The position numbers were made by a program, and so were the translations under genes. 64,000 nucleotides of DNA, from assembly GCA_045837725.1 (NCBI GenBank), contig JBEWZL010000102.1, positions 186,001 through 250,000 of the forward strand, written 5' to 3'. The DNA comes from Vermamoeba vermiformis (taxonomy: Eukaryota). The notes under the pieces are model-generated. The model was not told where the DNA came from, did not search any database, and worked only from the letters and a program-made list of their open reading frames with translations. Of this stretch, positions 19,465-62,108 are shown piece by piece. How positions within the stretch are numbered: the first letter of the stretch is position 1; the number at the start of each line of letters is the position of its first letter.

Positions 19465-21694
19465 ATGATGAACCCCACGAAGAATGTAATTAAATACTTG
19501 ATACGGTTGACAATAGGTATTATTAACAGATCCGTTTGTAGTTCAAAGGCGTCAAGCTGTATTTCCGCAATGAATATCAGGACTTTTATTCGATCGTAGG
19601 CACGCTTGTATTAACTGATTTCGAAGCATTGTTCTATTCTGACGATGGCAAGCGAGACATGCAGGTAATAGCTCCATCTGCCAAAAATAATTTCAAAAAT
19701 ATTGATTCTAATTCACACCCATTTTTATTATCATCAGGCGACATTTCATAGCGTAGATCTTGTAGATAGAAATACCAAGAATTTTATATTCGTTTTTTTC
19801 AAAGATTTCCAGCAGTGGGTCATGAGCTGCGAGGACGCAGTGTTTCCAGATCTGCTTTTAGCGTGGAAAGAGAAGACACATTCAGCTGGACAATATTATA
19901 AGACTAATGGTGAATACGACACCTCAAAAATATTCGCATTTAATTACAGATCACCGGAGCTTATTGAAGAAGACGGATGGAGCATTTATGATGCGGTGAG
20001 TGATAGCCGAGGCAACTACAATAGCATTTAATTGATTGTCAATACTATCGCAGCGAAATGAATACCAACGCATGTTTACGACCCTCACGATTGAGAACAA
20101 AGAATTGCGATGGAAAATCAGCAATGTGAACGAGCAGTACGATGTAAGTGGATCTGACGCATCTACTAGCTTGCAGTTCAATATGACAACTCTTATATTC
20201 TCGTAGTTATGTCCCTCGTATCCGGCGCACATTGTATTGCCGAGCGAGTTCGAAGACGCTGATTGGCGCAAGGCCACGGAATTTCGCGATGCGTCACGTG
20301 CTCCTGCTGTCTCGTGGATTGGCTCCCACGGCCGTGCTATTTTGAGATGTGCACAGCCCTTGCCCGGCAGACTCGGCCTGGGTCGATCACCGCAAGACGA
20401 ACGACTGCTGACGCTGGCCAGTCAGGGCGCAGCACTCGCGATTGTCGATGCACGCAGCAGACAAAATGCGTGGGCCAATCAGGTCAAAGGCGCAGGATTT
20501 GAACGACAAGAAAACTACGGTGTAAGTGTCAAGTGCAGCACTGTCGTTGACTGCTCGTTGACACGTGTCACAGGGATGTCAAGCAGAGTTCATCGGCATT
20601 GAAAACATTCACGTGATGCGCGACAGTCTCGAGAAGTTGCAGCTGTTGTGTCGCACTGTGAACAAACACAACGCGAGCTGGTGGAACAAACTCGAAGCGA
20701 CCAATTGGATGCGCCACATTCACGGTACGCGTGTCAGTCCTGCCTCTTGTGCGTACTCACTGCTGATTTAGATGTGTTGCGCGGAGGTGCAAAGATTGCG
20801 CAATTAGTCCGCACTGGCACTACGACACTCGTGCACTGCAGTCACGGCTGGGACCGCACCGCACAGCTCGTAGCCCTGGCACAGCTGTTGCTCGACCCTT
20901 ACTACCGCACTATTCGCGGCTTTGAGCAGCTGATTGAAAAAGAGTGGTGCTCCTTCGGCCACAGATTTGAACACCGCTGCGGTCACTTGCGACACTTGGA
21001 TCCGACCACTGACAGCAACGAGAGCTCACCGATCTTCATGCAGTTCATCGACGCAGTGTGGCAAGTCATGACGCAGTTCCCCGATCAGTTTGAGTTCAAC
21101 GACAAGTTCTTGCTGACCGTGCTCGAACACGTCTATTCGTGTCGCTTTGGCACCTTCTTGTTCGACACTGAGCGTGAACGACGCGCAGCTGATGTGCAGA
21201 GCCTTACTGTGTCGCTGTGGAGCTACATGAATCACTCCTCGCGCCTGCACAGCTTTGTCAATCCGTTCTACAGTCGACTCAAGCTGCGCGACTACTTGCC
21301 CTTCGACTGCGCGCCAAACAAATTGATCTTCTGGGCTGCGCTGTACTGTCGCCACGAATACACTGAGACACCACTCGCACGCCTGACAGTGCGCGTGAAG
21401 ACAATGAGCGAAGACCAGCAGCTGTTGCAAGAGCAGTTGAAGCGTGCCGTGTTGGAGTCGTTCAACTTGAAGCAGTCGTTTGACAAGGAGCGCGAGCAGT
21501 TGTTGCAGCGCATTCGACAGCTAGAGGGCAAGGAAGAGCCGAACAGTGCGAAGAAGAGTCACGCGAGCGATGAGAGCAGCAATAGGACGAGTACTAGCCC
21601 GAGCAACGAGGCTGTGAGTGAAGTGCAGAGCACATCTGACGCAACCACCGCAGAACCAGCACCCACGAACAGTACTGCTAGCGATGCGTCATAG
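19465..21694 (+). CDS. Myotubularin-family phosphoinositide phosphatase
   Basis: LCPSYP, RCAQP, IENIHVMRDSL, VHCSHGWDRTAQ, LDPYYRTIRGF, SPIFMQFID; C-terminal coiled coil. Confidence 0.93.
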
Positions 21695-21814
21695 CGCACA
21701 AATTGAATAAAATAATTGTACAGTAAACACTCGTATGGCGTATATCTTCCTTATTCTCGACTCGGCCCAGCTAAAAACATTTGTTAAGGATCTGATCACC
21801 ACAGGACCCATCGA

Positions 21815-23123
21815 ATGGAGGCTATTACGTTCGAGCCTCCAAAATCAAAATTGACCGTGCAAACATCTACACTTAGCGATCGAGCAATACACCGCCTAAT
21901 ACTCGAACATCATTTCAATCATAAAGTACATCCGCTGCTACTGGTCAAATAATTCAATATTTATCAGATTATATTTAGGTTGAAATATTTGTACCGTTTG
22001 ATGCCAAATCATTGACCGTACCACAGCCAATAGAGGACAAAGAATTTTTTTATCACTTGCGATCTGATCTGTCGTTTTTGTTTGACGCTAAATTCATCGC
22101 GGAATATATCAAAAAAGGTAATTATAACAGGTTGTATCAAAATTAACATTTTTATTCATTCTGTTGCAGGGGATCTGTACCTGCTCAGTGTGGGCAGTTG
22201 GCTGGACAGTGGCAATGTGTTGAGTGTGCAGCACGGTCAGTTGACACTTGCAGTTGACCGTCAGACATATTTGCAGCTCGGCATTGAGGGCCAGAAGAGC
22301 ACGCTGCGGGACAACAGCGAGCGGTACTGGATCACACTGGCACTCAACAGCGAGCACTTCACACCTGGCTCCAATTACTACGAGCGCATTCGTTGGTGTC
22401 TCACGGAGCGCATTGGACCCTGTGAGCTAGTGCTGACGTGGTGCGATGACGGTAAGTCACGTGATTTGGTTTGCAGCCCTGGTTGATGACCTGCAACAGA
22501 GGGGCATGTCAAACCTGTCAACGTGTCAAACATGACGCTCACCCCGCGACAACTGCGCGTGTCACAACAACTGTTCGAACCCCTCGCGATACCTCATCAC
22601 GTGACACCTTCCAAAAAAGGAAATGATCCGAACAATGACAACGAACACCTGCTGCAGCTGCACGAATGGCTCGGCGCATTGTCGTGTCGCGCACTTGAGT
22701 AAGATGACTCGCACACACCTATATGCACATAGCTCTATACTCACCCTCGCTAGTTGCTGCACTACCGCTCAGCCTGAGTTCGATCCGTTTGTCGCCGCGT
22801 ATTCGCACGATTTGACTACAACGAGTGCGCGTGGTGTGAGCTACACATACAGCGGTCTGATTACACCTGCTTTCATCATGCGACTGATAGATCACTTCAA
22901 GTGAGTATTATGCAGCTGTTTGAGCCATTCTAACTGTTGCAGAGCCCACATCCCGCTTGAGTGGATCGCATTGTCAGCGTGGGGCTATGAAGACGCACCA
23001 GTATCATGGGGCAATCATGAACATGGCTATCACTGTGCAGGCGACAATGACTACTGCTTAATTATCGACAAATCACTCGCTGTGACAGCTTTTATCACCA
23101 CCGGCATGGATGCATATTCTTGA
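21815..23123 (+). CDS. RPP40: RNase P/MRP subunit Rpp40
   Basis: HHFNHKV; LTLAVDRQTYLQLGIEG; LHEWLGALSC; C-terminal WIALSAWGYEDAPVSWGNHEHG...GDNDY. Confidence 0.85.
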
Positions 23124-23202
23124 TTTTAACATCTGCGAAGAACAATAAACAGCCTTGTATTATAGCAACATTGTAAGAGTTGTACCACACAGTTCAATAT
23201 AC

Positions 23203-24217: not shown

Positions 24218-25372
24218 TCACTGTGCAGGCTGATTGTTGTTGTTGAGATAGCCCACGAGCAGTTGCAGCTGTTCGGGCGTGGAGTCAGGTGCAGGGATCA
24301 CTTGCGGCAGGACCAGTGCTTGACCTGCACCCTCGCCTAACGAGGTCACTTTGGTGCGTGCTCCACCTGACTGGTCTTGTCGTTGCGTGGTCTGATCTAA
24401 TGCGAGTGACACGTGTCAGCATTCATCACGTGACATGCAGCCAGGCTGACAACTTATGTGCAGCCAATCACGTACCGATCAGCGGTGTGAAGCGCACTGT
24501 GCCCAGATCTTTCACGGTGATTTCACCGCCCGGCAGCTTGTCCACTTGCAGGTAGCGGTGGAAGGCAGTGCTGGGACCAACAGGCAGCAACAATCGACCG
24601 CCCTCGCGCAGCTGATCTACCAGGGCACGCGGTATCTCTGCAGCCGCGGCACCGACGTAAATAGCGTCGTAGGGACCATGCTCACTCCACCCTGCAAAGC
24701 CATCGCCCGCTGCACTGAGGATTAGTGGCAGTGCCTAGATCACGACGTACTGACCTTTGATGGTGATGCGCGAGACAATGTTCGGATCTGCTGTTTGAAT
24801 ATTTGCGTGCGCTTGATCAACGAGCTCTGCAATGTGTTCGACGCCGTAGACGTGTCCTGTAGGACCGACCAGATGGGCAAAACACGCGCACATGTAGCCT
24901 GAACCCGCGCCAACATCTAAGACACGAGCACCTGGCTTAATGACTTCGCTCAATATTTCCAGACCAATTGCGTGCTGTGGAAATAATAATAATTAAATTT
25001 CAAAATTGAATACGCGTTCAGCTAAACAAAATCACTCACCATATGGGGTGCACTCAATGTTGCGTTGAACCCTTCATAATTATAACGCTTAATATTGAGT
25101 ATTTATGGCATAGAAATCATACCGATCGGCTGTGCTTTATCCTCATAAGGCTCATCTTGTCCTTGCACGTAACGAGCTCGATCGACTTTCAACATCGCTG
25201 TTTCAACAGCACTCGATTGAATATGACGCTTTTCCTTTAAATAAGCCACCAGGCGAGCGTTGCTGCGGATCCTCTTGTCACTCTTCGTTCCGACAGAGAG
25301 GTACAGGATCGCACCAACCGTCGATGCTGCAGCTACAGGCACTATATACCTAATGTACTTTGACCAATCCAT
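24218..25372 (-). CDS. PCMT1: Protein-L-isoaspartate O-methyltransferase with N-terminal hydrophobic segment
   Basis: MLKVDRARY, PYEDKAQPIG, ATLSAPHMHA, VLDVGAGSGY, PYDAIYVGAA, LREGGRLLLP. Confidence 0.9.
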
Positions 25373-25586: not shown

Positions 25587-25612
25587 CGGTGGTTACGATC
25601 TACTCAACAATT

Positions 25613-29152: not shown

Positions 29153-32015
29153 ATGAATATGGAAGCTGGATTAGATGCCTATCAGGATTCCGCGCATTCG
29201 TAAGTTTAACCTCTCCAGATGGGATCGAATCTTCGCAATATTTTTTTTGCAATTTTAAGAACCTCGCTGACTTGATTTAACTATGTAGCGAGTTCTTAGC
29301 GCGCATGTTAGAGCTCAAGCAAAAGTTCATGGAGGCGAAGAAACAAACCGAAGCTAAACCTACAAGCCCGCCAACTATGAATGTTCCAGTAAGTAAATCT
29401 GATGTTCGGTAGCCCTTTTTCTAATGGCTTCTATATGACCATTATACATCGGTTGTATTTTTAATGAACATTAATTAATTGACTTTTTGGATCAAGTCCC
29501 CGCAGACAAGCCAAAATAGTCCGCCGCTTCCGATCCAGAACCAATTTCAAAATAAGAAGAGACCTGCTTCTAATGATAGTTTCGATCAACGAAGACGAAA
29601 GAAGCGAAAAGTAGTTGAATCCGACAAAGTTCAAGGTACGTCATCGAACCGAAATCCGACGCGCGAAAACTAAATTTGTTATCTTACGTAGAACTATTGA
29701 AGCAAATTATAGAAGAGCATGGTGGTTCTTGCCATTTGGAAACAATCGTCGAATATGTCCGTCGGGTACGTCGATAAATCCGAAATCTGGAATTAAATCT
29801 TTTTGACCGCCGAACAATCATTCTCATGTCGGAGAAATTATAATAAGACAATTTTTGTCATTTTTTGCTTCTTTAATCACTAAATCCGATTTAATTCCAG
29901 CAAGCTCAAGTGACCGATCTATTTCCGCCTGAAGACCGTAAGTGTTGTTAATATTACACTGATATTAGTGACCATATGTAGCGTAACGTGCTACTAATGT
30001 GGTGTTCAGGTGCGGATGTGAAAGAGATCAAGAAACAAGTCAAATATCTGCTGCAGAACTTGCAGGACTCGATGAACACACTCATCTTCACGCAAGACTC
30101 GTACAAGGACGGCTGTTGGCTCCTCAATCCTGATCTCAAGAAGCCGAGCGAGGTACGTGCTGCGGGGAATGATCATCCGAGCTTCGAACTGACACGTGTC
30201 AACAGAGTGACAGCAGCAATCCGCTGATGACTACAGAGACGTTGACGGGCCCCCTCAGCGACGGAGACTACAGCATTCGTAAGTACACTGCACCCTCCTC
30301 TCGTGTAGCTCACACCTGCGCCAGGCTCGATTGACGATGTGATCACCAACGCACTCGAGAAGAATGACGGCACAGCGCACATTGACGTCATCAACGACTA
30401 CGTGTTCAAGAACTGGGACCGCAAGATGTCGAGTGGCAAGTTCATGACTGACGAGCAACTCAAAGAGCGGATCCGCACCACCCTCGATACACACCCGAAA
30501 TTCATGCGCGATCCTATCAGCGACAACAAATACATTCTCACCAATCGAAAGAAGCGACGCGTAAGTCGTGCTGGTGGTCCTGAGGATCACATGCTGACAG
30601 TCTACCAGGGCTCATACAACACTAACAACGGCAACAACAACCTCAATAACAGCAGCAATGGCAACAAGCGCGGTGCACCAGGCCGCAAGAAGAAGTACGA
30701 CTCAGACAACGAGGACAGTGTGCGTTCTAAGCGCACGAGCACGAACAGTTTAAGCTCGCTGTCGAATTACAATCCACACATCAAGAAAGATCCGCCTGCA
30801 CCGTCAGAGGGTTATCAGTGCAGCTGTGGCCGCGCATACAACAGTCAAGAAGTGCTCAAGACTGGTGCTATTTGGTACTACGGCCCACACCCCAGCACGT
30901 GGATGTGTGCACCGTGCGGCAGTCGCTGGTCCAAAGAACACGCTTGTCCCGTGTGTGGTCGCGTGTATGACTCGCACCACTTGGACCTCGACAAAGACGA
31001 GGACGAAGAAGACGAGGAGGACGATGATGACGAGGACGAGGATGAGGACGAAGACGAAGAGGGCGAGTGGATTCAATGCGATCAGTGCAGTCGGTGGGTG
31101 ATGTGCAAGTGCGACGGCATCAACGACCTCTCCATCTACGACGACTCCAATCCCAATCACTTGCCCTACTTGTGTCCCATGTGTCGCAATGAACAGGCCG
31201 AGAAACCACTCGTATTCCACACGCGTCAACAGTTCCAAGTGTGGGTCAAGACCAACACGCGCAATCGTCGCATGCTGCGTCACAGCAGCGGCGCTACGAC
31301 GACACAGACCACGAACACAACTGTCACCACCACGACACGTGCCAAGCCCGAAGATGAGAACGAGTTGAAGCGAAGGAGGAAGACAGGTGCAGGCACAGTG
31401 ACGCAGAGCACAGCTACGGTGACGACACAGACCAATGTGACCGTCACACCACAACCCACCAGTCACGCGCACACCATGGGCGTCACTTCTCGCGTGCAGA
31501 CTGTTGTACACCAACAGCTGAACGATGTGAATATGGGTAAGTACTGCACAGCGCAGTGCACGTGCGAGAGTGCTAATGTCTTGCTAGAAACAGAGATGAG
31601 TCGTCCATTGTTGCACACACGATTGCTGGACAAATTGCCGCACACAGATTGTAAAATAACATTGATCGAGCGAGAACTGTTGCGCGGTGTGGATCAGCAG
31701 CGTGAAGAGAGCGATGAGCGGTGGACAAAAGCCAAGTTTGAGAAGACATCGGTCGTCGAGCGCAAATTCGTGGAAGAAATCAGCAGAATACGCGAGTACT
31801 TGGTGCAGACTCGCAATTCACTGTGGGACCGCAGCCAAAAAGATCTAGAGCGGCAGATTGACAAGCTGAAAAAAGAGAAGAAGGTGCTCGACGAGAAGAT
31901 TGAAGCGCAGCTCATAGATCAGTTCCGCGTCTATTTTCAGAAGAAGTTAGATAATTTCAATGCGCAGATGGATAGTATATTAAACAACTCCGATGATGTG
32001 GATACGAGTGCGTAA
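29153..32015 (+). CDS. Nuclear protein with winged-helix-like regions, zinc finger/PHD finger and C-terminal coiled coil
   Basis: CSC...CAPC, then CPVC...WIQCDQCSRWVMCKC...YLCPMC (PHD-like, with an acidic insert); basic NLS-like tracts; multiple 5' introns. Confidence 0.75.
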
Positions 32016-32103: not shown

Positions 32104-33863
32104 TCACTTCTTCTTGCTGTGCAGGATCTGGTAGCGATTGATCGCTCCTTGCGCCGCTTTGTTGCCGTACTTTTGTTTGAGTTCCGCTGAAGTCACCCAC
32201 GTCTTTGTGCCTCCCGCGCTGCTCACTCGCCACTCAGTGCTGCCTGCAATATCGCGCACACCGACAATAGACACTTCTGTAGTCTTGTCTGCACCACTCT
32301 TTCTGCGCGAGCTCTTCGTCTCGGCACTCTTCTTGTTCTTGCCGCGCTGTTCGACTTGCGCGCTATCAGAACTCGAAGACTCATCTTCACTGCTCTCTGA
32401 GGACTCTGTGCGTGTCTCGTGCTGCTGTTGCTTGCCAGTGCTCTTCTTGCCCGAGCGAGGTTGCGTGGGACTCTTGCTCTGACGCGGCGTCTTTTGTGCG
32501 CTGCTCTGTTGTTTGCTCGCTGATCGTGTGCGCACACGTGGTGTGGGCTGTTCATCGCTGTCATCTTCGTCCTCGCCCTGCTCTTCGTCCTCATCGTCCT
32601 CGTGCTCCTCGACTTGTTCTTCAACTTCTTCCTCATCATCTTCTTCCTCTTCTTCTTCAGTGCGTGCTGCTCTTCCTCCCGACACGCGACGTCGTTTGTT
32701 CGGACGAGGACTCGCTGAGGTAGATCTTCTGCGCTTGTTCGTGCTGGGTGTGTTGCCGCGTGATTGACGCTGATTGGCGCGCATGTCTTCAATTCTGCGC
32801 TTCAGTTCGCGGATCTCCACATCGCGCGCGTGCAGTTCAGCTTCGAGTTCACGCATGCGCACAGCCATCGAATCTACTTCAGCCTTGCGCGTGAGAGCAG
32901 CTTGTTTGTACAGCGTGATGGCTTGCTGCACCTTCTTGCTGTCACTCTGCTCCAGGGCGCGTTGTGCCTCACGCAATGCACCGCGCAGCAGTTCAATCTC
33001 CTCTTGCGCACTCACTGCACTCTCCTCGTCACTCGCGTAGTGTTTGCGCGGTGAGGCACGAGGTTTGACACGTGTCACCTCTGGCTCTTCAATCTCCTCA
33101 ATCACGTGGTCCTGTTCGTGAACCTCTTCTTCACTGACCTGCGCGGACAATTCGTCAGCGGTCATGAAGCGACGACGAGTGCGGCGGTGCACTTCATTCA
33201 CGAACAGTTCGCCTGCCAGATCTGTCGCCAATCGCCTTTCATTGTCGCGCACAGTGATGTCCGCGCCGTTGTTGAGCAGCAGCACCGCAATGTCGAGCTG
33301 TTGTGCTTGAAAGGCGCAGTGCAGTGGTGTCGTGCCGTTGCGTGCGCGCGCATTCACATTGGCTTTGTGTTGGATCAGCTTGAAGGCGAGGGGCTTGGAG
33401 ACCTTAGCTGCATAGTGCAGTGGAGAGCGACCTTCTTTGTCCCTGGCAGTGGATAAATAACGACTCTCATATGCAAAGCCTTGCGCACGTACCCGAGATT
33501 GACATTCGCGCCGTTGTTGATTAGCCACTCGACGCAGTTCACTTGATTAAAACTGATGGCAGCTAATAGGGCAGTGGTGCCCGATACATCTGTACAGTAA
33601 ATTATCAGTACTTAGTCTCTTCGATAGTAGTTGTACAAATTAGCAGAATTTACTCGGCGCTAGGGTTAGGGTTTGAAGAAAATTAATTACCCAAAATTGC
33701 AAATGCGATCAAATTAAATACCAATATACAAATACGAGCGATGCTTACCATATGACACATTTACATCAAGGTTGTATCGGCGCATTAATGCTTGCATCTT
33801 GCTCAGTTCGCCCAATTGCGCGAAACCGATGAACTTAATAATCTGGTCATCTTGGTCAGCCAT
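32104..33863 (-). CDS. Ankyrin-repeat protein with coiled coil, acidic region and possible C-terminal chromoshadow-like domain
   Basis: GTTALLAA, GRSPLHYAA and GTTPLHCA ankyrin repeats; C-terminal SIVGVRDIAGSTEWRV...TWVTSAELKQKY...AINRY. Confidence 0.8.
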
Positions 33864-34046: not shown

Positions 34047-35866
34047 ATGCAGCTCAATCACGTCACGAAGCTCAGCCAAGTGCCGCGATCAGGTCTCAAC
34101 AACTCACTGGTGCACATTAAGGGCTGTATTGTTGCATTAATTACCGACAACAATGCGATTTATTTCTACGAATATAGACACCATGGTAGAGAGCTGCACT
34201 TGCGCGATCAGATCCTCTTCTCGTCCCCGTTGATTGAGATCGAGTCTGTCGCGCTGTCCACGGACGAACAGTGGCTCATCATTGCGACTAGCAGCGCACT
34301 GACCACACTCACTGACTCTGCGCGACCAGCGGTGCATTTGTACAAGGTACCAATTACCTCTTGGTAGTGACAGTTCTGACCGCTGCGCAGGTGTTGGATC
34401 TGACGCGTTCACTGAACGACACCGAGTCACGTGCCATGTTCAGTGCAGTCACGTGTTTTTCAGTGTATTTTCAGCCCAAGACTGTTGCAGCCACACCGAT
34501 CGATCAACAAGAACTCTTGCTGGCAGTGGGTGGTGGCAATGGTGTCGAGTTATTCCGCTGTTCACTGACCGACAAGCACGTGACACCAATGAGATTGCTG
34601 CACGACGCCACGAGCATCAATCACGTGACTTTTGACACTAGCGGTCACTACCTGGCCATTGTACGTGTCACTGATTGACAGCTGGTATTGACACTTGCCT
34701 TTTTAGGTAGCAGCAGATGGCCACGTGGGAGTGTGGTCACGTGACAAGTTACTGACGAGTGCGGGACACATTGATTGGTTCGATCACGTGACCTCGGAGC
34801 GCATCACTGATTTGCAGTTCGGGGGTGACCTGCAACGACCTCTGCTGGCACTCAGCACGTGGGACGGACAACTCTTTGTGTACGCCCGTGACACGCAAGG
34901 TGGCACCTGGCAACACGTGGCAATGAATTTGCTGCTGACACGCCAAGAGAAGAACACGAACAACCCTGGTGGATTTATTCAGTTCAGCGGGCGCTATCTC
35001 GTCACGTGCTTGCAAGATCAGATCGTCTTGTCTGACACGTGTCAAAATGCGATCCACAAGGTGACGCGAGTGCCACTTAAGGACAGCACAGACTGCGTTA
35101 AAGGTGTGACCCTGGTAGATGTCAATGAGGTGACACGTGCTGTATTGGTGCTCACTCGATCACGTGACTTGCACTGCATGACACTGCCACTGCCACTTTC
35201 CATATCTGGCAATGAGTGTTGCATCGCCCAGCACGCAGACGTGGAGTTGTATTTGCAGCACGCAGCAGACTGGCGCCATTCACCTTTGCAGCTGTCACTG
35301 CACTCTGCCACTAGATACGTGTCATTCGCATGTCCGCACGTCAGTTACGAGATGTTGGGCACCTCTGTCACGTGTGCTGTCACGCTGTCACACGTGTGTC
35401 TCGCTGTCGGGTCACAACTGCTGCTGTACGAGACTGCAAATGACACGTGGCGAGATATTTTCACTGAACAGCCTGTAGTTGCCGTCTGTTTCATGAACGG
35501 TGAGTGATAGCTGTGTGTGGTCAGTACTTAATTCTTTGCTGCGCAGATCACGTGGTGGCACTGCTCGAGAGTCACGCGCTAGTCACGTGGCAGCTATCGA
35601 CATTGAAACAGAAGAGCTGTGTGAACCTAAAAATAGACTCTCAGTCACGTGGTACTTTTTTGCTTTCACAGGGAGACTTCTGCTGCGTTGTGCGATGGCA
35701 GAATGACACGTGTCATTTGGAATTCATGACGGTGTCTGACATCGGTCTCAAATTACATTCGACTGCCCGATACGAGCACGTGACTGAGGTGCGGTACACT
35801 ACCTGTCGGAACCTGCAAATGACATGTGCCAGCGGAGAAACTCTCTCGATCGAATGGCCAAATTAA
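34047..35866 (+). CDS. Divergent WD40/beta-propeller protein
   Basis: SINHVTFDTSGHYLA, DGHVGVW and ITDLQF..LALSTWDGQLFVY WD-like blades; introns at about 34348, 34661 and 35499. Confidence 0.65.
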
Positions 35867-39793: not shown

Positions 39794-39854
39794 TAGCCTT
39801 ATTTGTACAATTGAAGATTTATAAATAGCTACACCTCTATAATTACAATGGGCC

Positions 39855-40374
39855 CTAGTCGCGCGATGTACCGTCACTGCGCTTCAAATAGCCCATGCTG
39901 CGCAGCACGTAGCGCGTCTGTTGCGCGAGGTGCGAGTCGGGCTGTTCGTTCAGAATGCGATCCAAGTACCGCGCACTGCCACTCAGTCCACCACTCACCG
40001 CGCATATGCTGCTCACGCCCAGGGTGAATATCGCGCGCTTCCACGGCGAGGGCTGTTGACCAGTACGACGCAACACTGCGAGTGTGGGTGAGCTGGATGT
40101 ACCTGACTAGCACCGCACGAATGAGGTTACTTACGCGACCATATGCCTTCTGCGAATATGAACCCGACGCCAAAGCCGATGCCACTCCTACATCACGCAG
40201 TAATTAATTAATTAATTGAAAAAACAATTATTAAATAAAGGCATTGACTTCAATAATTGCGGTGCATGAATATGGTACTGACCTCTTCAATAAATCACGG
40301 TAAATGGATTGCAACAATTTGGTTTCAGGATCGCGTGCAGTAGCGGGAGCAGGTTCCACATTGCTCACATCCAT
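39855..40374 (-). CDS. Small hypothetical membrane protein (3 exons)
   Basis: ATG at 40374 (MDVSNVEPAP); GT-AG introns join it to ORF 39855-40076, which has a hydrophobic segment. Confidence 0.55.
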
Positions 40375-43245: not shown

Positions 43246-46027
43246 ATGCAGAGTACGCACAACAAGAAGCGAGTGCAGTTCAGATTTGAACAAGAAAGGC
43301 CCGCCAAGCGACAACGCGTGGATGCAGCTGTTACACGCCGAGCAGTAGTGAGCAGTGAGCTCGAATATGAGCACAATAGTGCTGCTGATGATAGACGTCA
43401 CGAGCTCACGGGCGAGTTACTGCCTGCATCGGTGGGTGTGACCGCGAGTAGCTGGATGGAGACTAGAAACGCGTCAGACGATGATTCTAGCACTCAAATG
43501 ACTAGTGATACGCACAATACAGCACCACTAACTATGTCTGGCTTGTTGGGCTCTATTCGTCTGCCTCGATCTGCCGCACCTGGTAATTTAACTTAATTAT
43601 AGCGCAATATTGTTCGAAATATTATACAATTAATATCGCTATGAAATACTATGATTATCATGACTATACACGCATATTCCGTGCTAAGTACTGACGCACA
43701 CTGGTCTGCAGCGGATCCACGCTTCTCAGCAGGCAAGCGAGGTGCGAGTGCACTGCACAAGCGCAAGAGTGACGACAATAGCAGCACTAGTGCCAGCAGT
43801 CTCGCTGCGCAGGGACTCGAAGTGGCACTGATCGTGAATCTGCATCCGCACGGCTATTCACTGAACGATCAAGAGCAGCTGCACGCCTATCACAAACACA
43901 GCGCGGTGTCACGTGACTTGGTGGAGTCGATCGATCACAATCTGCTCTATCATCCGCTGCACGACCTCGTGGCCAATCTGCAGCCCAAGTACGACCACGG
44001 CGCACTGCTGCTGCAGATCCGCGACTTCAGGGGCCCAGTGCTGTCTGCAGCTGATCGGAAGTGGTCCGATGAGGTCACTGCGGAGGCGAGCAAGGACGCG
44101 GACACGGAGCACAAGGAGCCTGAGGTGAAGAGCGAGGTCAAGGACGAGGCTATTAATAGCAACACCAGCGCTAATAATAGCAACACCAATAATAGCACCC
44201 CGAGTGCGGCCAATAATAGCACAGCTGTCGCACCGAGCACTGCTGTCGCTAATAATAGCAGCACCAATAATAGCACCGCTGCCAGCGAGGAGCCAGGTGA
44301 CAGCAAGAGCGAGGAGAAGAAAGACAGCGCGAGTGTCAAAGTGACACCTGTCACACTCAAACATCCAATCACGTGCTTGCATCCCCGACACTCACAGCAG
44401 TCACGTGGTCTGCCCACCGTGCACTACGTGCTGCTGCGACCGAGTTACGAGCACGTGATCGGCGATGTGCGCCAGCTGATCGATCGATTGGTGGCAGAGA
44501 GTGCCAGCAAAGCGAACAACAGCAAACTCAACGACAGCAGTGCTGCCCTGGATGAGAGCGTGGACCTGGACAGCATGATCGAGTCGTTCATTAACCGCGA
44601 TGAGACTAATAATAGCACCACTGACCAGGGCCCTGGTCTGCGCGTCGAGTCCAAGACTGATGCCACCAATCTGCTCGAGGCCAAATTGTTCCGCGCCCTG
44701 GTGCCAGACCTCTGTCTCGATCCCAGTCCCGAGGTATTGTTCCGCAGTAATTCCGCTCACTACAATGCGCGCAAGATGCTGCGCTCAGTGCCGCACAAAG
44801 ATCTCAAGCGCGCACGTGTAGTGCCACGTGTCATCACCACGCCACGTGCTCTCGGTGTATCTCCGGTGATCGAGAACGAGCACGTGATGCAAATTGAAGC
44901 CACCACCGAGCCCACACCCCTAGCGGTTGAGAATGGCCATTCAGTGAACGAGCACGTGGATGAGTCCGCGTCGAGCAGTCAAGTTGACACGATGACACCT
45001 GTCAATGTGACACTCGAGACTGAGCCCGTTACTAGCTCGAGAGTAAGTCTTTGCAACTATTTCGGCGCTGTAGCGATCGATTGACGAGCTAAATTTAGAA
45101 GCGCGAGTCCAAACTGCTGAATTTTCTGCAAACCATCAGCCACGAGGCCCTGGTCGACGAAAACAATCGTTATTTGCACCGCGAATCGATCTACCAGCCC
45201 CTGTCCATCATCACGAGTGCCAAGAGTGCCACCAGTGCCTTGCCAAATATAGGCAGCGAGCTGTCCTTTGCGCACACGAACAAGATGAAGCAGGCGCAGG
45301 AACAGAGTCGCACACTCAAGTACGGCATCAACAAGAACCGCGACTATTTGCAGCTCGAACTCGCCTTCACGCACCAGGGCTCCGATCACGTGCACTTGTT
45401 GCCCGAGGAGCATGATCCGCGCTGGACGGGCAAGCTCTTGGTGCTCAAGGACGTCGTGCCTGGCAAGCCGCTGCCGTCACGTGATCCGCGCTACGAAGTG
45501 GAGTTCTCGATCGGCGATCAGTACCAGACGCAGCTGTTCGTGAACACGCTCAATCAGATCGAGATGCAGCAGGCCGGCACGCAGCTCATTCAAGACTCGG
45601 CTGCGGGCTATCAAGCACACCCGACCCTGCCGCAGACCCTGCCCTACATGCCACCTGGACCCAATCAGCCACCTGGCCCTGGTCAACCTGTGCCTGGCGG
45701 ACCGGTTAAATTGCCTTTTATGGGTGGTCCTGGTGGCGCAGTGCCGGGCATGATCAAACGTCCCGATCAACCCATGATGCCTGGTGGCATGCCAAAACTC
45801 CCGCCCCAGATGAGTGTGGTGCCCCCTGGCGGCATGCCACAGAACCCCATGCTGATGCAACGCAGACAAGGTAAGCGAGTTACATACGAGAGCTAGTACT
45901 GACCTGGACAGTAGTGCCACCTGGTGCTCCACGCCCTGGTGCTCCAATGCCACAGAGCATTCCTGGCCAGCCCTACATGCCACCAGGTCCCAATCAGCAA
46001 TTCCCACCCAATTATCCACATCATTGA
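43246..46027 (+). CDS. SPT20: SAGA subunit Spt20/SUPT20-like
   Basis: Spt20 domain motifs LIVNLHPHGYSL, LLLQIRDFR, YVLLRPS and LEAKLF...DLCLDPSPEV; P/G/M/Q-rich C-terminus. Confidence 0.8.
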
Positions 46028-54163: not shown

Positions 54164-56518
54164 ATGGATTCGGAACAGTTGGAAGTGATTCAACTTTTAG
54201 ATAAAGATATTGATTTGCTTAAAAAAGGTAATATAATAGTCTTACGCATGTATTAGCACTATAATTCACGACTAGAATATTTGCGGAATTAATATTTTAA
54301 TTTTTTGAAATTCTCGTTACCAATTAATGCCGCGAATAACACTCTAGCATCGCAAGGTATACGAGATGAGCGCAACAAACTGCCCGATCTCATCAAGACA
54401 TCATTCAGCGACTCTCAACTTGCTGATCCCAACATGCTCGATCTGTTCGTAGATCTGCTCCAACTCTCACAGCAACACTTGACAGTACCGCAATCACGTG
54501 CCGGATCACGTGACAAATCTTTGCAGACGTGGCCCGTGCTCGAAGTCGTGCCTGACACGCGGCCCAGTCCTCTGCTCGTGCAGTGTCGGCACTGTGGCCG
54601 CATGTTGCGCGCTGAAGTGTTTCACGAGCACGTGACTGGCTGTCAACTGGCACGCGCTGAATCACATGGCGAGTCACGTGGCAGTGCGAATAGAACACGC
54701 GACAACAGCCCTGCCCCGCGTCACGACGACAGCGAGGACTCGGCCACTGACGAGCGCAGTCGTGAGCACGTGACTGATCGTGCGGGTCAGGACTTGACAC
54801 GTGACATGTCAAATGTAGCACGTGATCTGTCTCCGCTGGCACGTGAGCTCGTGAAGAAAATTGGCGCTGAACACAGCAAACGCAAGCGCGACACTGACAC
54901 GGAGGATGAAGGTTTGTGTTTGACACGTGTCATTCGCTGTACTCGAGCTCACTATTGCTTGTATTTTTAGCGCCCAAGAGCAAAAAACGCAAACTCAGCA
55001 ATGAAACAGCTGTGCTTCCTAAAAAGGAAATAGCCACGACGACAGAAGTGCCACCACCCATCACTCAACAACACGTGCCGATTATTGACACGTGGACAGC
55101 GGAAGAACACGATGAACGCACGACACTGAAGAAATTGTTGATGTCTAAAAATAGCAGCAAGAGCAGCGAAGAGCACGTGCAAGAATTGCTGCAATTTATC
55201 AAAACAGTGCCACCACGACCCCTCGTGTTCACGAATGACGAGGACGCGCTCTATTTTTGGCACCAATCGCGCGCGCAGTCCACGCTGCCAGTTGCCACCA
55301 GAGCCGCACGTGATCGTCGCGCCCAACGACTGCGCGGTGCCGGAGTGCAAGTGAGTGCGCTGCCGAGTCGCGAGTTGGTGCTGAGCGAGTACCGCTACAG
55401 CGTGCCCAATCGACAGCTCAAACTCACCGCGCAACAAGTGCTGCTGCAACAGACGGTCAAGATCGCACTGCTCAGCGGACTGTTGCATCAGAACGACGCC
55501 ACCACCGGCAACAAACAGCTGCGCTCCAGCAAGGGACGCGTGCGAGCTAATAATAGCACCACACCGACCCCTCCGCCGAGTGCAGCAGCGCCACCGAGCA
55601 CGAGCGACAAGAGCGCGAAGACGAGTGACGCGAGTGCTGCGGAGAGCGAAGTGGACGAGAAGTCACTCATGGCCAAGCTGCTGCAGCTCGAGCCCAGCAC
55701 GCCTGCACCTAATAATAGCACCAACAACACGAACAGCGTGCCACCGACAGCTAATAATAGCAACAATGTGACAGCAGTGAGTACACCAGTGCCAGTCACC
55801 ACCGCACCCAGCACGTCGATTGCGGTGCCGGCCACACCTGTCACCCCCGTGCCTGCTGTCACTGCTGTCACTCCCACACCAGCCACGGCAAAGACTGGTC
55901 ACGTGCCCACGCTGCTCGTGCCCAACTCCGCGCTGAGTGCCACCCTGATGAAAGATATGGCCTTAAAAGGCAAGACAGGCTCAGGTGTGCCACTGACAGC
56001 TGTCACACTGCTGCACCCGACTCAACTGCAAGGTGCTAATGTAAGTTGTGTTTATTGCCTAATATGGTAACTCAAACATCACGTGCACAGATCAAGATGC
56101 AAGTCAAAGGCAAAGTCCCGCCCCTGACACAGCCCAAGGCCGCGCCCCCTCCGACAGGTGTCAAAGCAGCACCCGCGCCAGTGAGTGTCACGCCGAAGCA
56201 GATCTCGCCCAAGCCCGCAGTCAAACAGCCGCCACTGCTCGCCAAGCCCGTGCTGGACGGAGCTCTGCTGAGCGGCAACCGAGTGGCGGTGCTGCCGATC
56301 ACGAGTGCGAACACGCCGAGTCTGATGCGCGCACCGAACACGACTACCGTGGCTGGACGCGTGGTGAGCAGCATGCCTGTCGTGCTGACCACGGCCAAGC
56401 CACTCGTCGCACCGCCCAATGCTGTCGTGCCACCCACCGTGCCGGCCAAGAAGAGCACTGCCAAGTAAGGACATTTGTGTTGTGTGGCACGTGACTGACT
56501 TGCTAAATTAGGAAATGA
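54164..56518 (+). CDS. Sgf73/ataxin-7-like protein (N-terminal Zn finger, long low-complexity tail)
   Basis: LVQCRHCGRMLRAEVFHEHVTGC resembles the N-terminal Zn finger of Sgf73/ATXN7. No clear SCA7 domain seen; P/T/A-rich C-terminus. Confidence 0.55.
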
Positions 56519-56683
56519 GTGCCACCACCCTGTGAATACCCCTCGACGCGTGTGAATACCTCTGTTAATACTGTCAGTTGACCGCTGAGCTGATGCTGCA
56601 CCACTGTAATATAGTAAACCAGTCCTCTCTCTGCGCTGGCGTGTCGTTCACTGAATACAATCTTTCACGGTGCTTGACAGGTG

Positions 56684-57653
56684 TCACTCGCCCTCCCCCT
56701 GCGAGGTGTGCGGGAATGACAGGTCCCAATAGCCCTCAGGTGTGTGCGGGGGCGTGTAGAGCTGTTTGTGGCGACTGACGTGTCCAATCAGCTCGTCTTT
56801 GCTCTTGTGTCCGTGCTGGTGGTGTTCGTGCACGTGTGTCGGGGCGTGTGCGGCACCCTCATTGCCATATATGGCTGCGTAGAACTGCGCGCACTGTTCG
56901 CACTCGTGGCCCGTGAGTTGTTCGCGGTCCTCTTTCTTGCGCACTGCAGCCACGTACTTGTACTGCTTCTTGGGCCGTCGTGCGTCGTTGCTGTCTGTTG
57001 TGCCATATTTGGTGTCTGCATTGCCATATTTGGTATCCTCATCGTCATCGCGCTCAGAGACGCGTCGTTTCTGCGGAGTGTGACGGAACAGCTCGAACTC
57101 GTCTGCTTCACTGTGCGGCAGTTCATCCTCGTGTCCGTGCTCGTCCTCCACTGCGCGGGACTGACGGTGCTCGTGCTTGGTACTCGCAGCACTCGTAGTG
57201 TTGTTGTGCGCCTCTTCGCTGTCACTCAAGTAGATCACGCTGTACTCCAAGTGCTCGGTGCTGTTGGCTTTGTTCATGTTGTACAAGATGCGCTGAGGCT
57301 CGCGCTTGTCTTCGAGATCTAATTCGTCTACTTCAGCGTGCTTGGTCTCGCTCATAATCAGCTTCTTGTTGTCCTCTTTCAATTCCTCCGATCGACTCAA
57401 TTTTTCCAGTAATTTTTTGTATTTATCAATCGTTTCTCGCGCTTTCATATATTTAATTTTCCACTCGTCGCGCTCTTCTTGTAACCTTTAATCAATTGTT
57501 AGTAATTAGTGTGGCGAGATCCAGCGTGTAACTAGCGTACTTGAATACTTGTTCGTGCACATCGCTCAACAGGCGCTGCAGTGGGCCAGTGATGCTGTCC
57601 AATGTGCTGCCACGTGCGCGACTAGTGGTGTGTGCAGTAGTGTTCTTGTGCAT
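56684..57653 (-). CDS. SAE2: DNA end-resection factor CtIP/Sae2/Ctp1
   Basis: YKYVAAVRKKEDREQLTGHECEQCAQFY, SRHK and TPEGYWDLSFP; N-terminal coiled coil. Confidence 0.9.
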
Positions 57654-57713
57654 TGTTCGCGGTGTGTTAATCAGATCTGCAATTGAATTAGTTGTTGAAC
57701 AGCACAACGCAGC

Positions 57714-60348: not shown

Positions 60349-60383
60349 ACGGCGCTGCAACAGCTCAATAAATATTCACCTAG

Positions 60384-61096
60384 CTAGTCCGAGATATTTA
60401 TTGCCAGCACAGTGAGACAGCACAGCACGAGTGCCGCGATCAGCAGGGTGAGCAGATGACGTGGCAGTGCACTCAATTCAGACCACGTGACTGTCACTGG
60501 CCGTGCAGCACCGTTGACGCATCGATAGCCAGTCTGTGCATCGAGCACGTGATAGATGCACTGCGGGGCCATGCACTGATGGGTGCGCGTGTTGCAGACG
60601 AGTGGTGTCGGACAGGCAGTGACGTCACAGCGCGGTGCAGTGCGTGTCATGCTGTCAAGTGACAGGTGTCAGCGTGAGGTCCGTACCATTCACTGCAACT
60701 TACTCGACACAAGTGAGGGTGTTGTAGTCACAGTAATTATTGAGCGGACACTGCGGGGCGAGTGCAGTGACAGAGGTGCAGGTCAGTTGCGCGGAGTAGG
60801 GCTCAGTGCGCGCACAGTACTGCGTCTTGGCTGCGGGGACTGTGAACCACCCGGCATCGCTTACGTGACACTCTGCGCACTGCGTCGTGTTGAATCGAGT
60901 GTAGGGATAACGTGCCTAATATGCCATTGGTTAGTCGACGATCAATTATTCCACCCCTCGCACTTACCAAGGCGCATCCGCCATTCTGTGCAGTAGTGTT
61001 GCGTCTATTCAGTACTGCGGCCAGAGGTGAGAGCGCATTGCAGTACACTAAAAGAATTAAAATGAAGTATATTGTGTGGTGCATCACATAGCGCAT
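60384..61096 (-). CDS. Small secreted or surface cysteine-rich protein with C-terminal hydrophobic segment
   Basis: Signal peptide; exons joinable by GTAAG introns at about 60967 and 60704; repeated C..CP..C...T..C motifs; hydrophobic tail. Confidence 0.6.
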
Positions 61097-61174
61097 TGAG
61101 TTAATAACAACAGCCGCAAATGATTACCGGTTTTGTACCGAGTGAAATTTCAGTTAGTTTTCCGAACTCGACCT

Positions 61175-62108
61175 TTACTTCGCTTTAGTGCCAGAGCTTT
61201 GCTGAAGGCACAATCTAGAGTACATGTATGATAGGTGGTGAGTGATTTGCTGAACGGAGAGTTCCGAGGTGAAGTTCGAGAGTGAAGTGAGTCCGATGAG
61301 GGTGCGCGAATGACAGGTGTCAAAGTGCGTCCTATGCCGCGCAATTCTTCTCACGAGAGCATGCCGTGCTTCTTGAACAGCTCAATGTACTGGCGCGTGT
61401 GCGTGACTGGTGCTGCGTGCTGCTCAATGTCGGAGATTTCGCTGAGATCGATCAGCAGTTCAGGAGTGGTGCTCGCCACGTGGGTGAATTGATCTCCGAA
61501 GATGAGCTCGAGACACTTGACAGCTGTCACGGAGAGTTGTTCGCGAATGTTGCGGCTCGTGTTGCTCGCGGGGGGTGTGTTGGCACGGCGCTTGAATGGG
61601 TTGTGTATCACGCCGAGCAGCTCTTCGTGCACGGAGCTGGGCAGTGCGAGATGTGCCACTTCCTGATTAGTATAAGTCACGTGATACACCACGCCGCGTG
61701 GCTGGTCTGCTGCGGTCACTGCGAGCTGACGCAGTTCAAAGCCGCGCCACCTGGTGCGCAGTCCCTGTGGTGCCATTAATACCACATTATATGCTATTGG
61801 AGGGCTATATGAGTACTTACGCGAAGGTGAATGGTCTGTTTGGTGGTGAAGAGACGGATCTTGTCGAAAATTAATTTGATTTCTCGATCAGCCTCTAACA
61901 CTTGGTTGTCGCACATTAAATATGACTTGTCCGCCAACGTATCAAAATTAACTAAATAAGTAGGCTTAATACGAGTCTTGGGTGCAGTGGGGAGCTGAAG
62001 TTGGATGGTAGATTGGATGGGCGTGTTAGTCGTGCGCAATGTGTTGGGTGTTACTGGCTGATAGAACGAAGCTGATTCGTTGGTGTATAATAATATGCTG
62101 GAGTACAT
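61175..62108 (-). CDS. Hypothetical protein; ends at 61351 or continues through a frameshift to 61175
   Basis: ORFs 61794-62153 and 61351-61785 joinable by an intron; another frame stays open for about 60 codons downstream. Confidence 0.45.

What the first reader, a model, noticed from the sequence alone, without database searches (positions are those of the whole stretch)
20559..61529. 12-bp palindrome family TGACA[CG][CG]TGTCA iterated at least 20 times in exons and introns
Seen: exact TGACASSTGTCA at 20559, 24407, 30190, 33066, 35033, 35704, 39466, 39564, 39612, 39681, 40954, 42172, 44342, 44993, 54921, 55994, 56675, 60660, 61311 and 61518, plus near-matches. Under equal base frequencies about 0.015 copies are expected in 64 kb. 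Copies have unrelated flanks and are translated in different frames (VTRV, DTCQ/DTCH, VTPV, VTGV, LTAV), so the signal is at DNA level. Known: TGACAGCTGTCA and TGACAGGTGTCA are the in vitro dimer sites of TALE homeodomain proteins (TGIF/PKNOX/MEIS). Inference: a eukaryotic analogue of cyanobacterial HIP1 or bacterial uptake sequences, in which a protein-recognised motif accumulates by drive (biased conversion or repair, or protection from mutation) or by selection for a chromatin function.
Basis: partly seen in the sequence, partly recalled or inferred. Interest (0 to 1): 0.9.

Follow-up and report, generated by a model that had tools for sequence, protein, structure and literature searches.

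The report
Iterated 12-bp palindrome in amoeba genes
An exact 12-letter DNA palindrome that looks like the docking site of a paired DNA-binding protein is scattered through the exons and introns of a Vermamoeba-like amoeba far more often than chance or protein coding allows, which is a pattern known from bacteria but not so far from a eukaryote's nuclear genes.

Summary
TGACASSTGTCA occurs 20 times at the stated coordinates. Expected counts are 0.03 in dinucleotide shuffles and 0.5-1.2 under order-5/6 Markov models. In ORFs 12 copies are seen against 0.37 after synonymous-codon shuffling.

The word behaves as a symmetric dimer site:
- Only the inverted TGACA-N2-TGTCA arrangement is enriched.
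- One-mismatch copies sit at background (7 seen, 4.0 expected).
- Flanks are unrelated.
- The centre is always S.

By my reading, 12 copies are exonic and 8 non-coding. A related lineage (L001, 86% identical in coding DNA) keeps both non-coding copies 12/12 within flanks 42-60% identical. One exonic copy differs there by two substitutions.

The host is a Vermamoeba-like amoeba. The first 20 kb of the window has none.

A second, larger family, CACGTG (123 copies, 11.5x), co-occurs.

Best reading (0.4): sites for a two-fold symmetric, TALE-homeodomain-like DNA binder, kept by selection. Main rival (0.3): a HIP1-like repair or conversion drive.

Not tested: genome-wide extent, the binder, methylation.

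The parts
20559..20570 (.). copy, CG centre; predicted intron of the + strand myotubularin-like gene, 31 nt after a GTAAGT donor and 3 nt before a CAG
   Evidence: the 52-nt intron is my reading of frames, not shown by RNA
24407..24418 (.). copy, CG centre; predicted 79-nt intron on the - strand (24397-24475), 10 nt before the 3' splice site
30190..30201 (.). copy, CG centre; predicted 53-nt intron on the + strand (30153-30205), 4 nt before the 3' splice site
33066..33077 (.). copy, CG centre; exon of the - strand ankyrin-repeat gene (read VTRV)
35033..35044 (.). copy, CG centre; 266-codon open frame on + (read DTCQ)
35704..35715 (.). copy, CG centre; 120-codon open frame on + (read DTCH)
39466..39477 (.). 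copy, CG centre; exon of the + strand WD40 gene (DTCQ); first of a cluster of 4 copies in 227 bp
39564..39575 (.). copy, GG centre; same WD40 exon (VTGV)
39612..39623 (.). copy, CG centre; same WD40 exon (LTRV)
39681..39692 (.). copy, CC centre; same WD40 exon (VTPV)
40954..40965 (.). copy, GC centre; 222-codon open frame on - (LTAV)
42172..42183 (.). copy, CG centre; no long open frame; predicted 48-54-nt intron on - (to 42193), 4 nt after the donor hexamer
44342..44353 (.). copy, CC centre; exon of the + strand Spt20-domain gene (VTPV)
44993..45004 (.). copy, CC centre; same Spt20 exon (MTPV), 38 nt upstream of the one intron shown by an RNA contig (45043-45098)
54921..54932 (.). copy, CG centre; predicted 59-nt intron on + (54912-54970), 3 nt after the donor hexamer
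55994..56005 (.). copy, GC centre; 386-codon open frame on + (LTAV)
56675..56686 (.). copy, GG centre; its last three bases are the TGA stop of the - strand ORF 56684-57448
60660..60671 (.). copy, GG centre; predicted 52-nt intron on - (60652-60703), 8 nt before the 3' splice site; 12/12 conserved in L001 while flanks are 36/60 and 28/60 identical
61311..61322 (.). copy, GG centre; non-coding (candidate 105-nt intron 61250-61354 on -, or 3' UTR 29 nt past a TGA); 12/12 conserved in L001 while flanks are 25/60 and 36/60 identical
61518..61529 (.). copy, GC centre; exon on - (VTAV); L001 differs at 2 of 12 positions by substitution (one changes Val to Ala, one is synonymous)
1..20000 (.). contrast region: ordinary intron-rich eukaryotic genes with the same dinucleotide signature, but no copy of the 12-mer and CACGTG at chance level (6)

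Best explanation
The 12-mer is a recognition site for a two-fold symmetric (homodimeric or paired) sequence-specific DNA-binding protein. Its half-site is kTGACAS, which is closest to the dimer site of TALE-class homeodomains. Copies were made in place by point substitutions in transcribed DNA. They arose wherever the protein sequence or an intron could tolerate them. They are kept letter-perfect by selection on the DNA itself, for binding of that protein. The role is probably a gene-body chromatin or transcription-control mark on a subset of genes.

Shown: the anatomy of the site, its DNA-level excess, origin or loss by substitution, and conservation in non-coding DNA.

Inferred: that a protein binds it, that this protein is TALE-like, and that selection rather than a drive keeps it.
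For: 1. Dimer-site anatomy. TGACA-N2-TGTCA occurs 20 times. Every other spacing from 0 to 15, and the everted and direct arrangements, occur 0-4 times.
2. The two halves choose C or G independently. Observed CG/GC/mixed counts are 10/3/7 against 9.1/2.1/8.8 expected (my arithmetic). The centre is never A or T.
3. Among the 123 CACGTG, two TGACA-type arms occur together 10 times against 2.2 expected. They mix with RT-type arms only 2 times against 13.6 expected (my arithmetic).
4. Position -1 is G or T in 28 of 40 half-sites.
5. Two TGIF1 homeodomain monomers were crystallised on the GC-centred 12-mer with T/A flanks (passages of PMC6158717).
6. Exact copies far exceed near copies: 20 exact, 7 one-off and 24 two-off, against 0.63, 4.0 and 24.3 in order-5 simulations.
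7. The constraint is on DNA. There are 12 copies in ORFs against 0.37 after synonymous shuffling. Both non-coding copies that can be compared are 12/12 identical in L001, inside flanks 42-60% identical.
8. In the WD40 gene, 18 of 24 copy-by-relative cells remain compatible with the motif, down to 71% protein identity, with no indel at a copy.
9. The distribution is patchy and clustered, like a regulon. There are 4 copies in 227 bp, 0-4 per gene, and none in 20 kb of neighbouring native genes, where about 9 would be expected at the local density.
Against: - Twelve of 20 copies are in coding exons, and only two at most (56675; 61311 if it is 3' UTR) lie outside predicted exons and introns; none lies in the AT-rich spacers. 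That is unlike ordinary promoter sites.
- Transcription-factor sites are normally degenerate. Here one-off copies are at background. That fits an enzyme-like reader or a drive better.
- The one exonic copy with DNA from a relative is not conserved.
- Motif-coded residues in the WD40 protein are not clearly more conserved than the rest. Ten of 12 full codons are invariant, against about 64% of columns (my count).
- No TALE gene, binding datum or genome-wide count is available.
- The commonest centre here is CG, whereas the solved site is GC-centred.
Confidence: 0.4

Rival explanations
1. HIP1-like drive. A sequence-specific enzyme system (modification-linked mismatch repair, or biased gene conversion) converts near-sites into the exact word and repairs decayed copies. 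The word therefore piles up wherever selection on the protein or on codons is weak, without serving the cell at each place.
For: - The exact form dominates sharply over one-off forms.
- Copies lie in any usable frame, in exons and predicted introns, and the excess is carried by synonymous codon choice.
- Both palindrome families are dense in poorly conserved, weakly covered genes (34-36, 38-46, 48-50, 54-56 kb). They are rare in the TPR gene, the DEAD-box helicase and the alanine aminotransferase.
- In constrained genes the 12-mer sits in introns (20559, 30190).
- For CACGTG, the CpG-transition neighbour CACATG/CATGTG is under-represented: 15 seen against 21-51 expected, depending on the model.
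- The density of 1 per 2.2 kb is of the order of the roughly one HIP1 site per 1 kb discussed for cyanobacteria. That model does not need a function at each site (section 3.4 of PMC4390886).
- Conservation in L001 introns is also what a persistent drive predicts.
Against: - No copy lies in 20 kb of native, intron-rich DNA with the same dinucleotide signature. A genome-wide drive should reach it.
- One-off copies are not depleted (7 against 4.0), so there is no sign that near-sites are being swept up.
- No enzyme reading a 12-bp two-half-site word is known in such repair systems, and no methyltransferase or methylation datum is at hand.
- Palindromes in general are not in excess once the two families and (TA)n are set aside.
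Confidence: 0.3
2. RNA-level element. The word acts in the transcript, as an extended branch-point region in introns and as a binding site for an RNA-binding protein or a pairing element in exons.
For: - At least 18 of 20 copies lie in predicted exons or introns.
- Four intronic copies end 3-10 nt before a predicted 3' splice site, which puts the A of TGAC about 12-19 nt upstream. TGAC or TAAC at that distance is the usual word in this genome's short introns, by my reading of the candidate list. The RNA-confirmed intron 45043-45098 has it too.
- The intronic copy at 60660 is conserved in L001 at the same place in the intron.
- Six of the 7 asymmetric copies show the CC form on the sense strand (my reading; binomial p about 0.13, not significant).
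Against: - A branch point needs only one half, yet the whole inverted repeat is kept.
- Direct repeats of the half-site, which a dimeric RNA binder would use, are not enriched.
- A 5-bp stem with a 2-nt loop cannot fold, and 7 of 20 centres are not self-complementary.
- Two intronic copies (42172, 54921) sit next to the donor, not the acceptor.
- Twelve copies are exonic.
Confidence: 0.1
3. By-product of general word bias. The genome favours CA/TG, GC and words such as CACGTG, GTCAC and TGACA, and the 12-mer is what these produce together.
For: - CA/TG rho is 1.31, GC 1.28 and CC/GG 0.67.
- CACGTG is 11.5 times the mononucleotide expectation, and many CACGTG-centred 8- to 10-mers are enriched.
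- Half-sites are themselves about 2-3.6 times the expected count (my arithmetic).
Against: - Markov models that contain all 6- and 7-mer frequencies still expect only 0.5-1.2 copies.
- Only one spacing and one orientation of the half-sites is enriched.
- Ten of 20 copies have CAGCTG or CAGGTG cores, which are only weakly enriched.
- TGACA arms pair with each other and avoid the commoner RT arms.
Confidence: 0.05
4. Relic of a mobile element. The copies are fragmented MITEs, solo terminal repeats or excision footprints.
For: - A 12-bp insertion would keep the reading frame.
- A true high-copy TIR element lies in the window at 46356-46992, so such elements are active in this genome.
Against: - Flanks are no more alike than random anchors.
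- There is no indel at any copy in the alignments with L001 or with six WD40 orthologues.
- The 61518 difference is two substitutions.
- One-off decayed copies are at background.
- The TIR element at 46.4-47.0 kb holds no copy.
Confidence: 0.03

Closest known systems
HIP1 and alternate highly iterated palindromes of cyanobacteria
   Same: - An exact short palindrome, vastly over-represented.
- Found in coding and non-coding DNA, in every usable frame, with unrelated flanks.
- Spread by substitution rather than by transposition.
- Density of the order of one per 1-2 kb.
- Whether it reflects function or is a by-product of repair is open there too (abstract and section 3.4 of PMC4390886).
   Different: - This is a eukaryotic nuclear genome.
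- The word is 12 bp, with two half-sites and a degenerate S-S centre, rather than an 8-mer built round a methyltransferase site.
- No cognate methyltransferase is known here.
- The distribution is patchy, with none in 20 kb.
- Genome-wide extent is untested.
TALE-homeodomain dimer site
   Same: - Half-site TGACA in inverted orientation with a 2-bp centre.
- T before and A after the core.
- The GC-centred form is the DNA on which two TGIF1 homeodomains were crystallised (passages of PMC6158717).
- The GG-centred form occurs in a paper on SELEX-derived motifs (search listing only, PMC5449588).
   Different: - Those are in vitro or promoter/enhancer sites of animal factors.
- Here the commonest centre is CG.
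- Sites are mostly inside genes, exact, and about one per 2 kb.
- No TALE protein of this organism was looked for, as no proteome or query sequence was available.
Bacterial uptake sequences (USS/DUS) and Chi (recalled, no call)
   Same: Protein-recognised words that are enriched throughout genes and shape amino-acid and codon choice.
   Different: Those are asymmetric words tied to DNA uptake or RecBCD. Neither process is known in amoebae.
E-box sites with defined flanks for bHLH-ZIP factors (recalled, no call)
   Same: - The co-occurring family RTCACGTG (54 + 47 half-sites of 246; GTCACGTGAC 8 times) has the look of such sites.
- CACGTG was conserved 4 of 4 times in L001, against 18.6% of all 6-mers.
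   Different: - There are 123 copies in 44 kb, in all three frames of coding DNA.
- Its two flanks are chosen independently (26 against 20.7 expected), so it is a separate phenomenon from the symmetric 12-mer.

Membership tests
Highly iterated palindrome (HIP1-like) | An exact palindromic word at a frequency orders of magnitude above composition-based expectation | tested here: met
   20 copies against 0.03 (shuffles) and 0.5-1.2 (order-5/6 Markov) in the window. Seven of the 20 are not strict palindromes, having GG or CC centres.
Highly iterated palindrome (HIP1-like) | Spread over the whole genome | not testable with these tools
   No genome is held. Copies lie only in 20.5-61.5 kb of the window, with 2 in the 4.4-kb L001. 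There are none in window 1-20 kb.
Highly iterated palindrome (HIP1-like) | Present in coding and non-coding DNA, independent of frame, with unrelated flanks | tested here: met
Highly iterated palindrome (HIP1-like) | A cognate DNA methyltransferase and methylation of the word | not testable with these tools
   No proteome and no modification data are available.
Highly iterated palindrome (HIP1-like) | One-letter deviations biased to the outer positions | tested here: inconclusive
   There are only 7 one-off copies. Folded positions: 1 (2 copies), 2 (1), 3 (3), 5 (1).
TALE-homeodomain dimer binding site | Two TGACA half-sites, inverted, with a 2-bp centre | tested here: met
   for spacing and orientation; for the solved TGIF1 complex on the GC-centred form.
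TALE-homeodomain dimer binding site | A TALE homeodomain protein encoded by the organism | not testable with these tools
   No genome or proteome is held. No tool-given TALE sequence was available to search with.
TALE-homeodomain dimer binding site | Binding in vitro or in vivo | not testable with these tools
   Needs EMSA, DAP-seq or ChIP.
MITE or other dispersed repeat | Copies share sequence beyond the core, with terminal repeats or target-site duplications | tested here: not met
   Flank identity is 18.4/60 against 17.0/60 for controls, with a maximum of 26 against 30. There are no indels at copies.
Spliceosomal branch-point region | Lies in an intron about 10-20 nt upstream of the 3' splice site | tested here: not met
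   Met by 4 of 20 copies (20559, 24407, 30190, 60660) in predicted introns. The other 16 do not fit: 12 are exonic and 2 lie next to the donor. The introns are predictions. RNA confirmed only 45043-45098, which has no copy.

The most novel reading that the evidence does not exclude
A eukaryotic counterpart of the bacterial highly iterated words. By extrapolation from one copy per 2.2 kb, thousands of letter-perfect copies of a 12-bp dimer site would be written into exons and introns of an amoeba by a sequence-specific DNA-level force. That force would be either a repair or conversion drive coupled to a site-reading protein, or selection for a genome-wide self or chromatin mark. It would be strong enough to bend synonymous codon choice and even amino-acid sequence, together with a second such word (CACGTG).
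Probability: 0.3. Interest if true: 0.9.

Novelty: new variant of a known kind. Interest (0 to 1): 0.72.

Why it matters
Words that are recognised by a protein and enriched throughout genes (HIP1, uptake sequences, Chi) are a bacterial theme. I found no description of one in a eukaryotic nuclear genome, nor of this 12-mer in any amoeba. The searches were made, over open-access PubMed Central and bioRxiv only.

If the pattern holds genome-wide, it gives three things:
- A tractable case for asking how a DNA-level force competes with protein and codon selection in a eukaryote.
- A ready-made candidate site for an ancient TALE-type factor in Amoebozoa.
- A practical sequence signature for recognising Vermamoeba-lineage DNA in metagenomes. 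The signature was 0 copies in 462 kb of 79 unrelated loci against 2 in 4.4 kb of the relative.

If it is only the regulon of one transcription factor, it is still unusual in being exact, intragenic and conserved inside otherwise scrambled introns.

Tried and rejected
- Whole-genome counts: no genome is held for this window.
- Orthologous DNA for the 4-copy WD40 region: the metagenome scan found no relative. The second scan, with the aminotransferase, gave one close locus (L001) and 79 distant ones used only as a negative control.
- RNA reads of the same species label (X23) proved 90-95% alike. They were laid mostly on conserved genes and gave no usable view of the copies or of most introns. 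Only one intron (45043-45098) was confirmed, by an X5 contig.
- The codon-usage classifier marked only 40% of 20-64 kb as coding. It was too weak to classify copies, so I used open frames, splice-site context and homology instead.
- General palindrome excess (the quasi-palindrome correction idea): not seen beyond the two families and (TA)n.
- IMG/VR scan for paired copies: 7 stretches, all tandem or operator-like arrays in phage-type contigs with no CACGTG excess. They are unrelated to the amoeba pattern.
- Earlier findings of this scan: nothing on this genome, these words or this sequence.
- Residue conservation at motif-coded codons of the WD40 protein (10 of 12 invariant against about 64% overall) does not separate DNA constraint from protein constraint.
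- Sense-strand bias of the GG/CC forms (6 of 7) is not significant.
- Supplements of the papers were not opened. SELEX tables in them could bear on which TALE factors prefer which centre.

Full report
**1. The observation**

- The centres are CG 10, GG 4, CC 3 and GC 3.
- Relaxing the centre to NN adds nothing, so A or T never occurs there.

Chance gives far fewer copies:
- 0.03 in dinucleotide-preserving shuffles.
- 0.015 to 0.18 under Markov orders 0-4, 0.52 under order 5 and 1.2 under order 6.
- The order-5 and order-6 models already contain the frequencies of every 6- or 7-mer inside the word.

The sequence itself is sound. Contigs of other public runs span copies with no differing letter:
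- X1 records 4 and 7.
- X5 record 11, over 39161-39692.
- X5 record 14, which also skips a 56-nt intron and is therefore RNA.

A water-metagenome contig (X9 record 19) covers 39319-39940 with 4 differences and one gap, at places not listed.

**2. What organism**

The open frames encode ordinary eukaryotic proteins: a myotubularin-like phosphatase, an Ash2-like protein, ankyrin and TPR proteins, an Spt20-domain protein, a DEAD-box helicase and an alanine aminotransferase.

The aminotransferase is 95% identical to a protein of the EukProt Vermamoeba vermiformis transcriptome. The next relatives are near 60% identical and are largely amoebozoan. The window therefore comes from a Vermamoeba-like amoeba, from a lineage distinct from that transcriptome. 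No whole genome is held.

**3. Anatomy of the word**

It is an inverted repeat of a half-site.
- TGACA-N2-TGTCA occurs 20 times. The same arms at any other spacing from 0 to 15, or in everted or direct orientation, occur 0-4 times.
- The two halves pick C or G independently. TGACAC makes up 27 of 40 halves, giving expected CG/GC/mixed counts of 9.1/2.1/8.8 against 10/3/7 seen (my arithmetic).
- The base before the half-site is G or T in 28 of 40 halves.

Exact copies dominate. There are 20 exact, 7 one-off and 24 two-off copies, against 0.63, 4.0 and 24.3 in order-5 simulations. Near-copies are therefore at background.

Flanks are unrelated. Pairs share 18.4 of 60 flank positions against 17.0 for random anchors, and the best pair shares 26 against 30.

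Palindromes in general are not enriched once this family, GTCACGTGAC and (TA)n are set aside.

**4. DNA level, not protein level**

Twelve copies lie in 19 long open frames (18,297 nt).
- Shuffling synonymous codons within each frame, which keeps the protein and the codon usage, leaves 0.37 copies. The maximum is 3, and 0 of 1000 shuffles reach 12.
- Shuffling codon order leaves 0.01.

The word has TGA in one frame on each strand. It is read in the other two frames as xTRV, xTGV, xTPV or xTAV, or as DTCQ/H.

**5. Where the copies sit**

- *Exonic (12 copies):* 33066, 35033, 35704, the four at 39466-39692, 40954, 44342, 44993, 55994 and 61518. This is my reading of open frames, Pfam hits, RNA contigs and splice-site context.
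- *Predicted short introns (6 copies):* 20559, 24407, 30190, 42172, 54921 and 60660.
- *Intron or 3' UTR (1 copy):* 61311.
- *Stop codon (1 copy):* 56675 supplies the TGA stop of a minus-strand frame.

These introns are predictions. RNA confirmed only 45043-45098, which has no copy.

In four predicted introns (20559, 24407, 30190, 60660) the word ends 3-10 nt before the acceptor. Its first TGAC then falls where this genome's short introns usually carry TGAC or TAAC (eyeballed).

At most two copies (56675, and 61311 if it is 3' UTR) lie outside predicted exons and introns, and the AT-rich bins hold none. Four copies cluster within 227 bp.

Window 1-20 kb has none, although about 9 would be expected at the local density. 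That stretch holds ordinary genes and shares the dinucleotide signature.

**6. Relatives**

One metagenome contig, L001 (4,382 bp), is 86% identical to the window in the aminotransferase exon and aligns with window 60300-62250.
- The two non-coding copies (60660 and 61311) are 12/12 identical in L001. The 60 columns on either side are 60% and 47% identical for the first, and 42% and 60% for the second.
- The copy at 60660 lies between the same conserved anchors, in an intron whose length and remaining sequence differ.
- The exonic copy at 61518 differs in L001 at two positions by substitution. One change is Val/Ala and one is synonymous. There is no indel.
- L001 has no copies of its own beyond the two shared ones.
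- The other 79 loci fetched (462 kb of unrelated organisms) have none.

For the four-copy WD40 gene, six relatives at 71-99% protein identity show no indel at any copy. Their residues remain compatible with the word in 18 of 24 cases. The losses are in the most distant relatives. The copies are therefore old and change by substitution. Whether the DNA word itself is kept in those exons could not be seen.

**7. A second, larger family**

CACGTG occurs 123 times in 20-64 kb, which is 11.5 times the expectation, and 6 times in 1-20 kb.
- It is read in all three frames.
- It exceeds the synonymous-shuffle null: 80 copies against 28.8.
- It is dense in poorly conserved genes and rare in the TPR, helicase and aminotransferase genes.

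Its usual flank is RT. The two flanks are chosen independently (RT/RT 26 against 20.7 expected). TGACA-type arms, in contrast, pair with each other (10 against 2.2) and avoid RT arms (2 against 13.6) (my arithmetic). The 12-mer is thus a distinct symmetric entity that shares the hot regions with CACGTG.

The transition neighbour CACATG/CATGTG is under-represented.

**8. Explanation**

The spacing, the symmetry, the independent halves and a centre that only distinguishes S from W all point to a two-fold symmetric DNA-binding protein. That reading of the centre rests on my knowledge of minor-groove readout.

The GC-centred form, with the same T/A flanks, is the DNA on which two TGIF1 TALE homeodomains were crystallised (passages of PMC6158717).

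An RNA role is unlikely for the whole word:
- Direct repeats are not enriched.
- The hairpin cannot form.
- Seven centres are not self-complementary.

The first half may still double as a branch point in some introns.

The data cannot say why there are so many exact copies.
- *For selection for binding (0.4):* the patchy, clustered distribution, the motif-free 20 kb, and the position-specific retention in scrambled introns.
- *For a HIP1-like repair or conversion drive (0.3):* the sharp preference for the exact form, the spread through any tolerant frame, the concentration in weakly constrained genes, and the parallel CACGTG excess with its depleted CpG-transition neighbour. The cyanobacterial model shows how such words can accumulate without a function at each site (PMC4390886, abstract and section 3.4).
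- *Largely excluded:* a compositional by-product (0.05) and a mobile-element relic (0.03).

**9. Novelty and verdict**

Five searches of open-access PubMed Central and bioRxiv found neither this word in any amoeba nor a highly iterated palindrome described in a eukaryote.

The finding is real and statistically overwhelming within the window. It is at DNA level, conserved in a sister lineage, and resembles a known kind of element (iterated protein-recognised words) in an unexpected host. I rate it a new variant of a known kind, with interest 0.72.

The main caveats:
- Only 44 kb plus 4.4 kb were seen.
- The intron calls are predictions.
- The binder, any modification and the genome-wide picture are untested.

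Noticed in passing
window 20001-64000: CACGTG occurs 123 times (10.7 expected from base composition), against 6 in 1-20 kb. It is read in all three frames of ORFs. In 19 ORFs there are 80 copies, against 28.8 after synonymous shuffling and 11.6 after codon-order shuffling. It is concentrated in the 2-kb bins at 34-36, 38-46, 48-50 and 54-56 kb, and rare in the TPR, DEAD-box helicase and aminotransferase genes. The preferred flank is RT (AGTCACGTG is commonest), and the two flanks are chosen independently. Four of 4 copies are conserved in L001.
   Followed up: partly
window 46356-46992: A roughly 640-bp element is bounded by 27-nt inverted repeats (81% complementary). It has about 100 times the depth of its surroundings in the X1 contigs, with many loose ends at its borders. 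It is probably a high-copy MITE-like transposon. It holds no copy of the 12-mer.
   Followed up: partly
window 1-20000 against 20001-64000: There is a sharp change near 20 kb. GC rises from 0.40-0.48 to about 0.5, open frames on the low side are shorter, and both palindrome families appear only on the high side. The dinucleotide signature is the same on both sides (CA/TG and GC high, CC/GG and TA low), and both sides hold ordinary eukaryotic genes.
   Followed up: partly
window, predicted introns, e.g. 982-1032, 45043-45098, 50144-50195: Introns appear very short (about 45-60 nt), with GTAAGT, GTACGT or GTGAGT donors. A TGAC or TAAC word lies about 10-17 nt before the acceptor, so half of the 12-mer equals the likely branch-point word. 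This comes from a heuristic list with many false positives. Only 45043-45098 is confirmed by an RNA contig.
   Followed up: partly
window 20001-64000: Several tetramers are strongly under-represented against a dinucleotide model: CCGG 0.40, CATG 0.47, CTAG 0.48, ATGC/GCAT 0.54. The hexamers CCCGGG, CCTAGG and GTTAAC are absent.
   Followed up: no
window 41241-41355: A tandem repeat of a 35-nt AT-rich unit, 3.3 copies, 95% matching, lies between genes.
   Followed up: no
window, e.g. 44149-44194: The 10-mer AATAATAGCA occurs 10 times on both strands together (0.16 expected). In the Spt20-domain and 54.9-56.1 kb ORFs it encodes Asn-Asn-Ser runs in low-complexity stretches.
   Followed up: no
L083 104-187; L084 521-712; L082, L085, L086: Phage-type IMG/VR contigs carry the same 12-mer in regular arrays. 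In L083 there are three copies 30-42 bp apart, each between T-runs, like operator sites. In four other contigs it recurs inside a 36-bp tandem unit.
   Followed up: no
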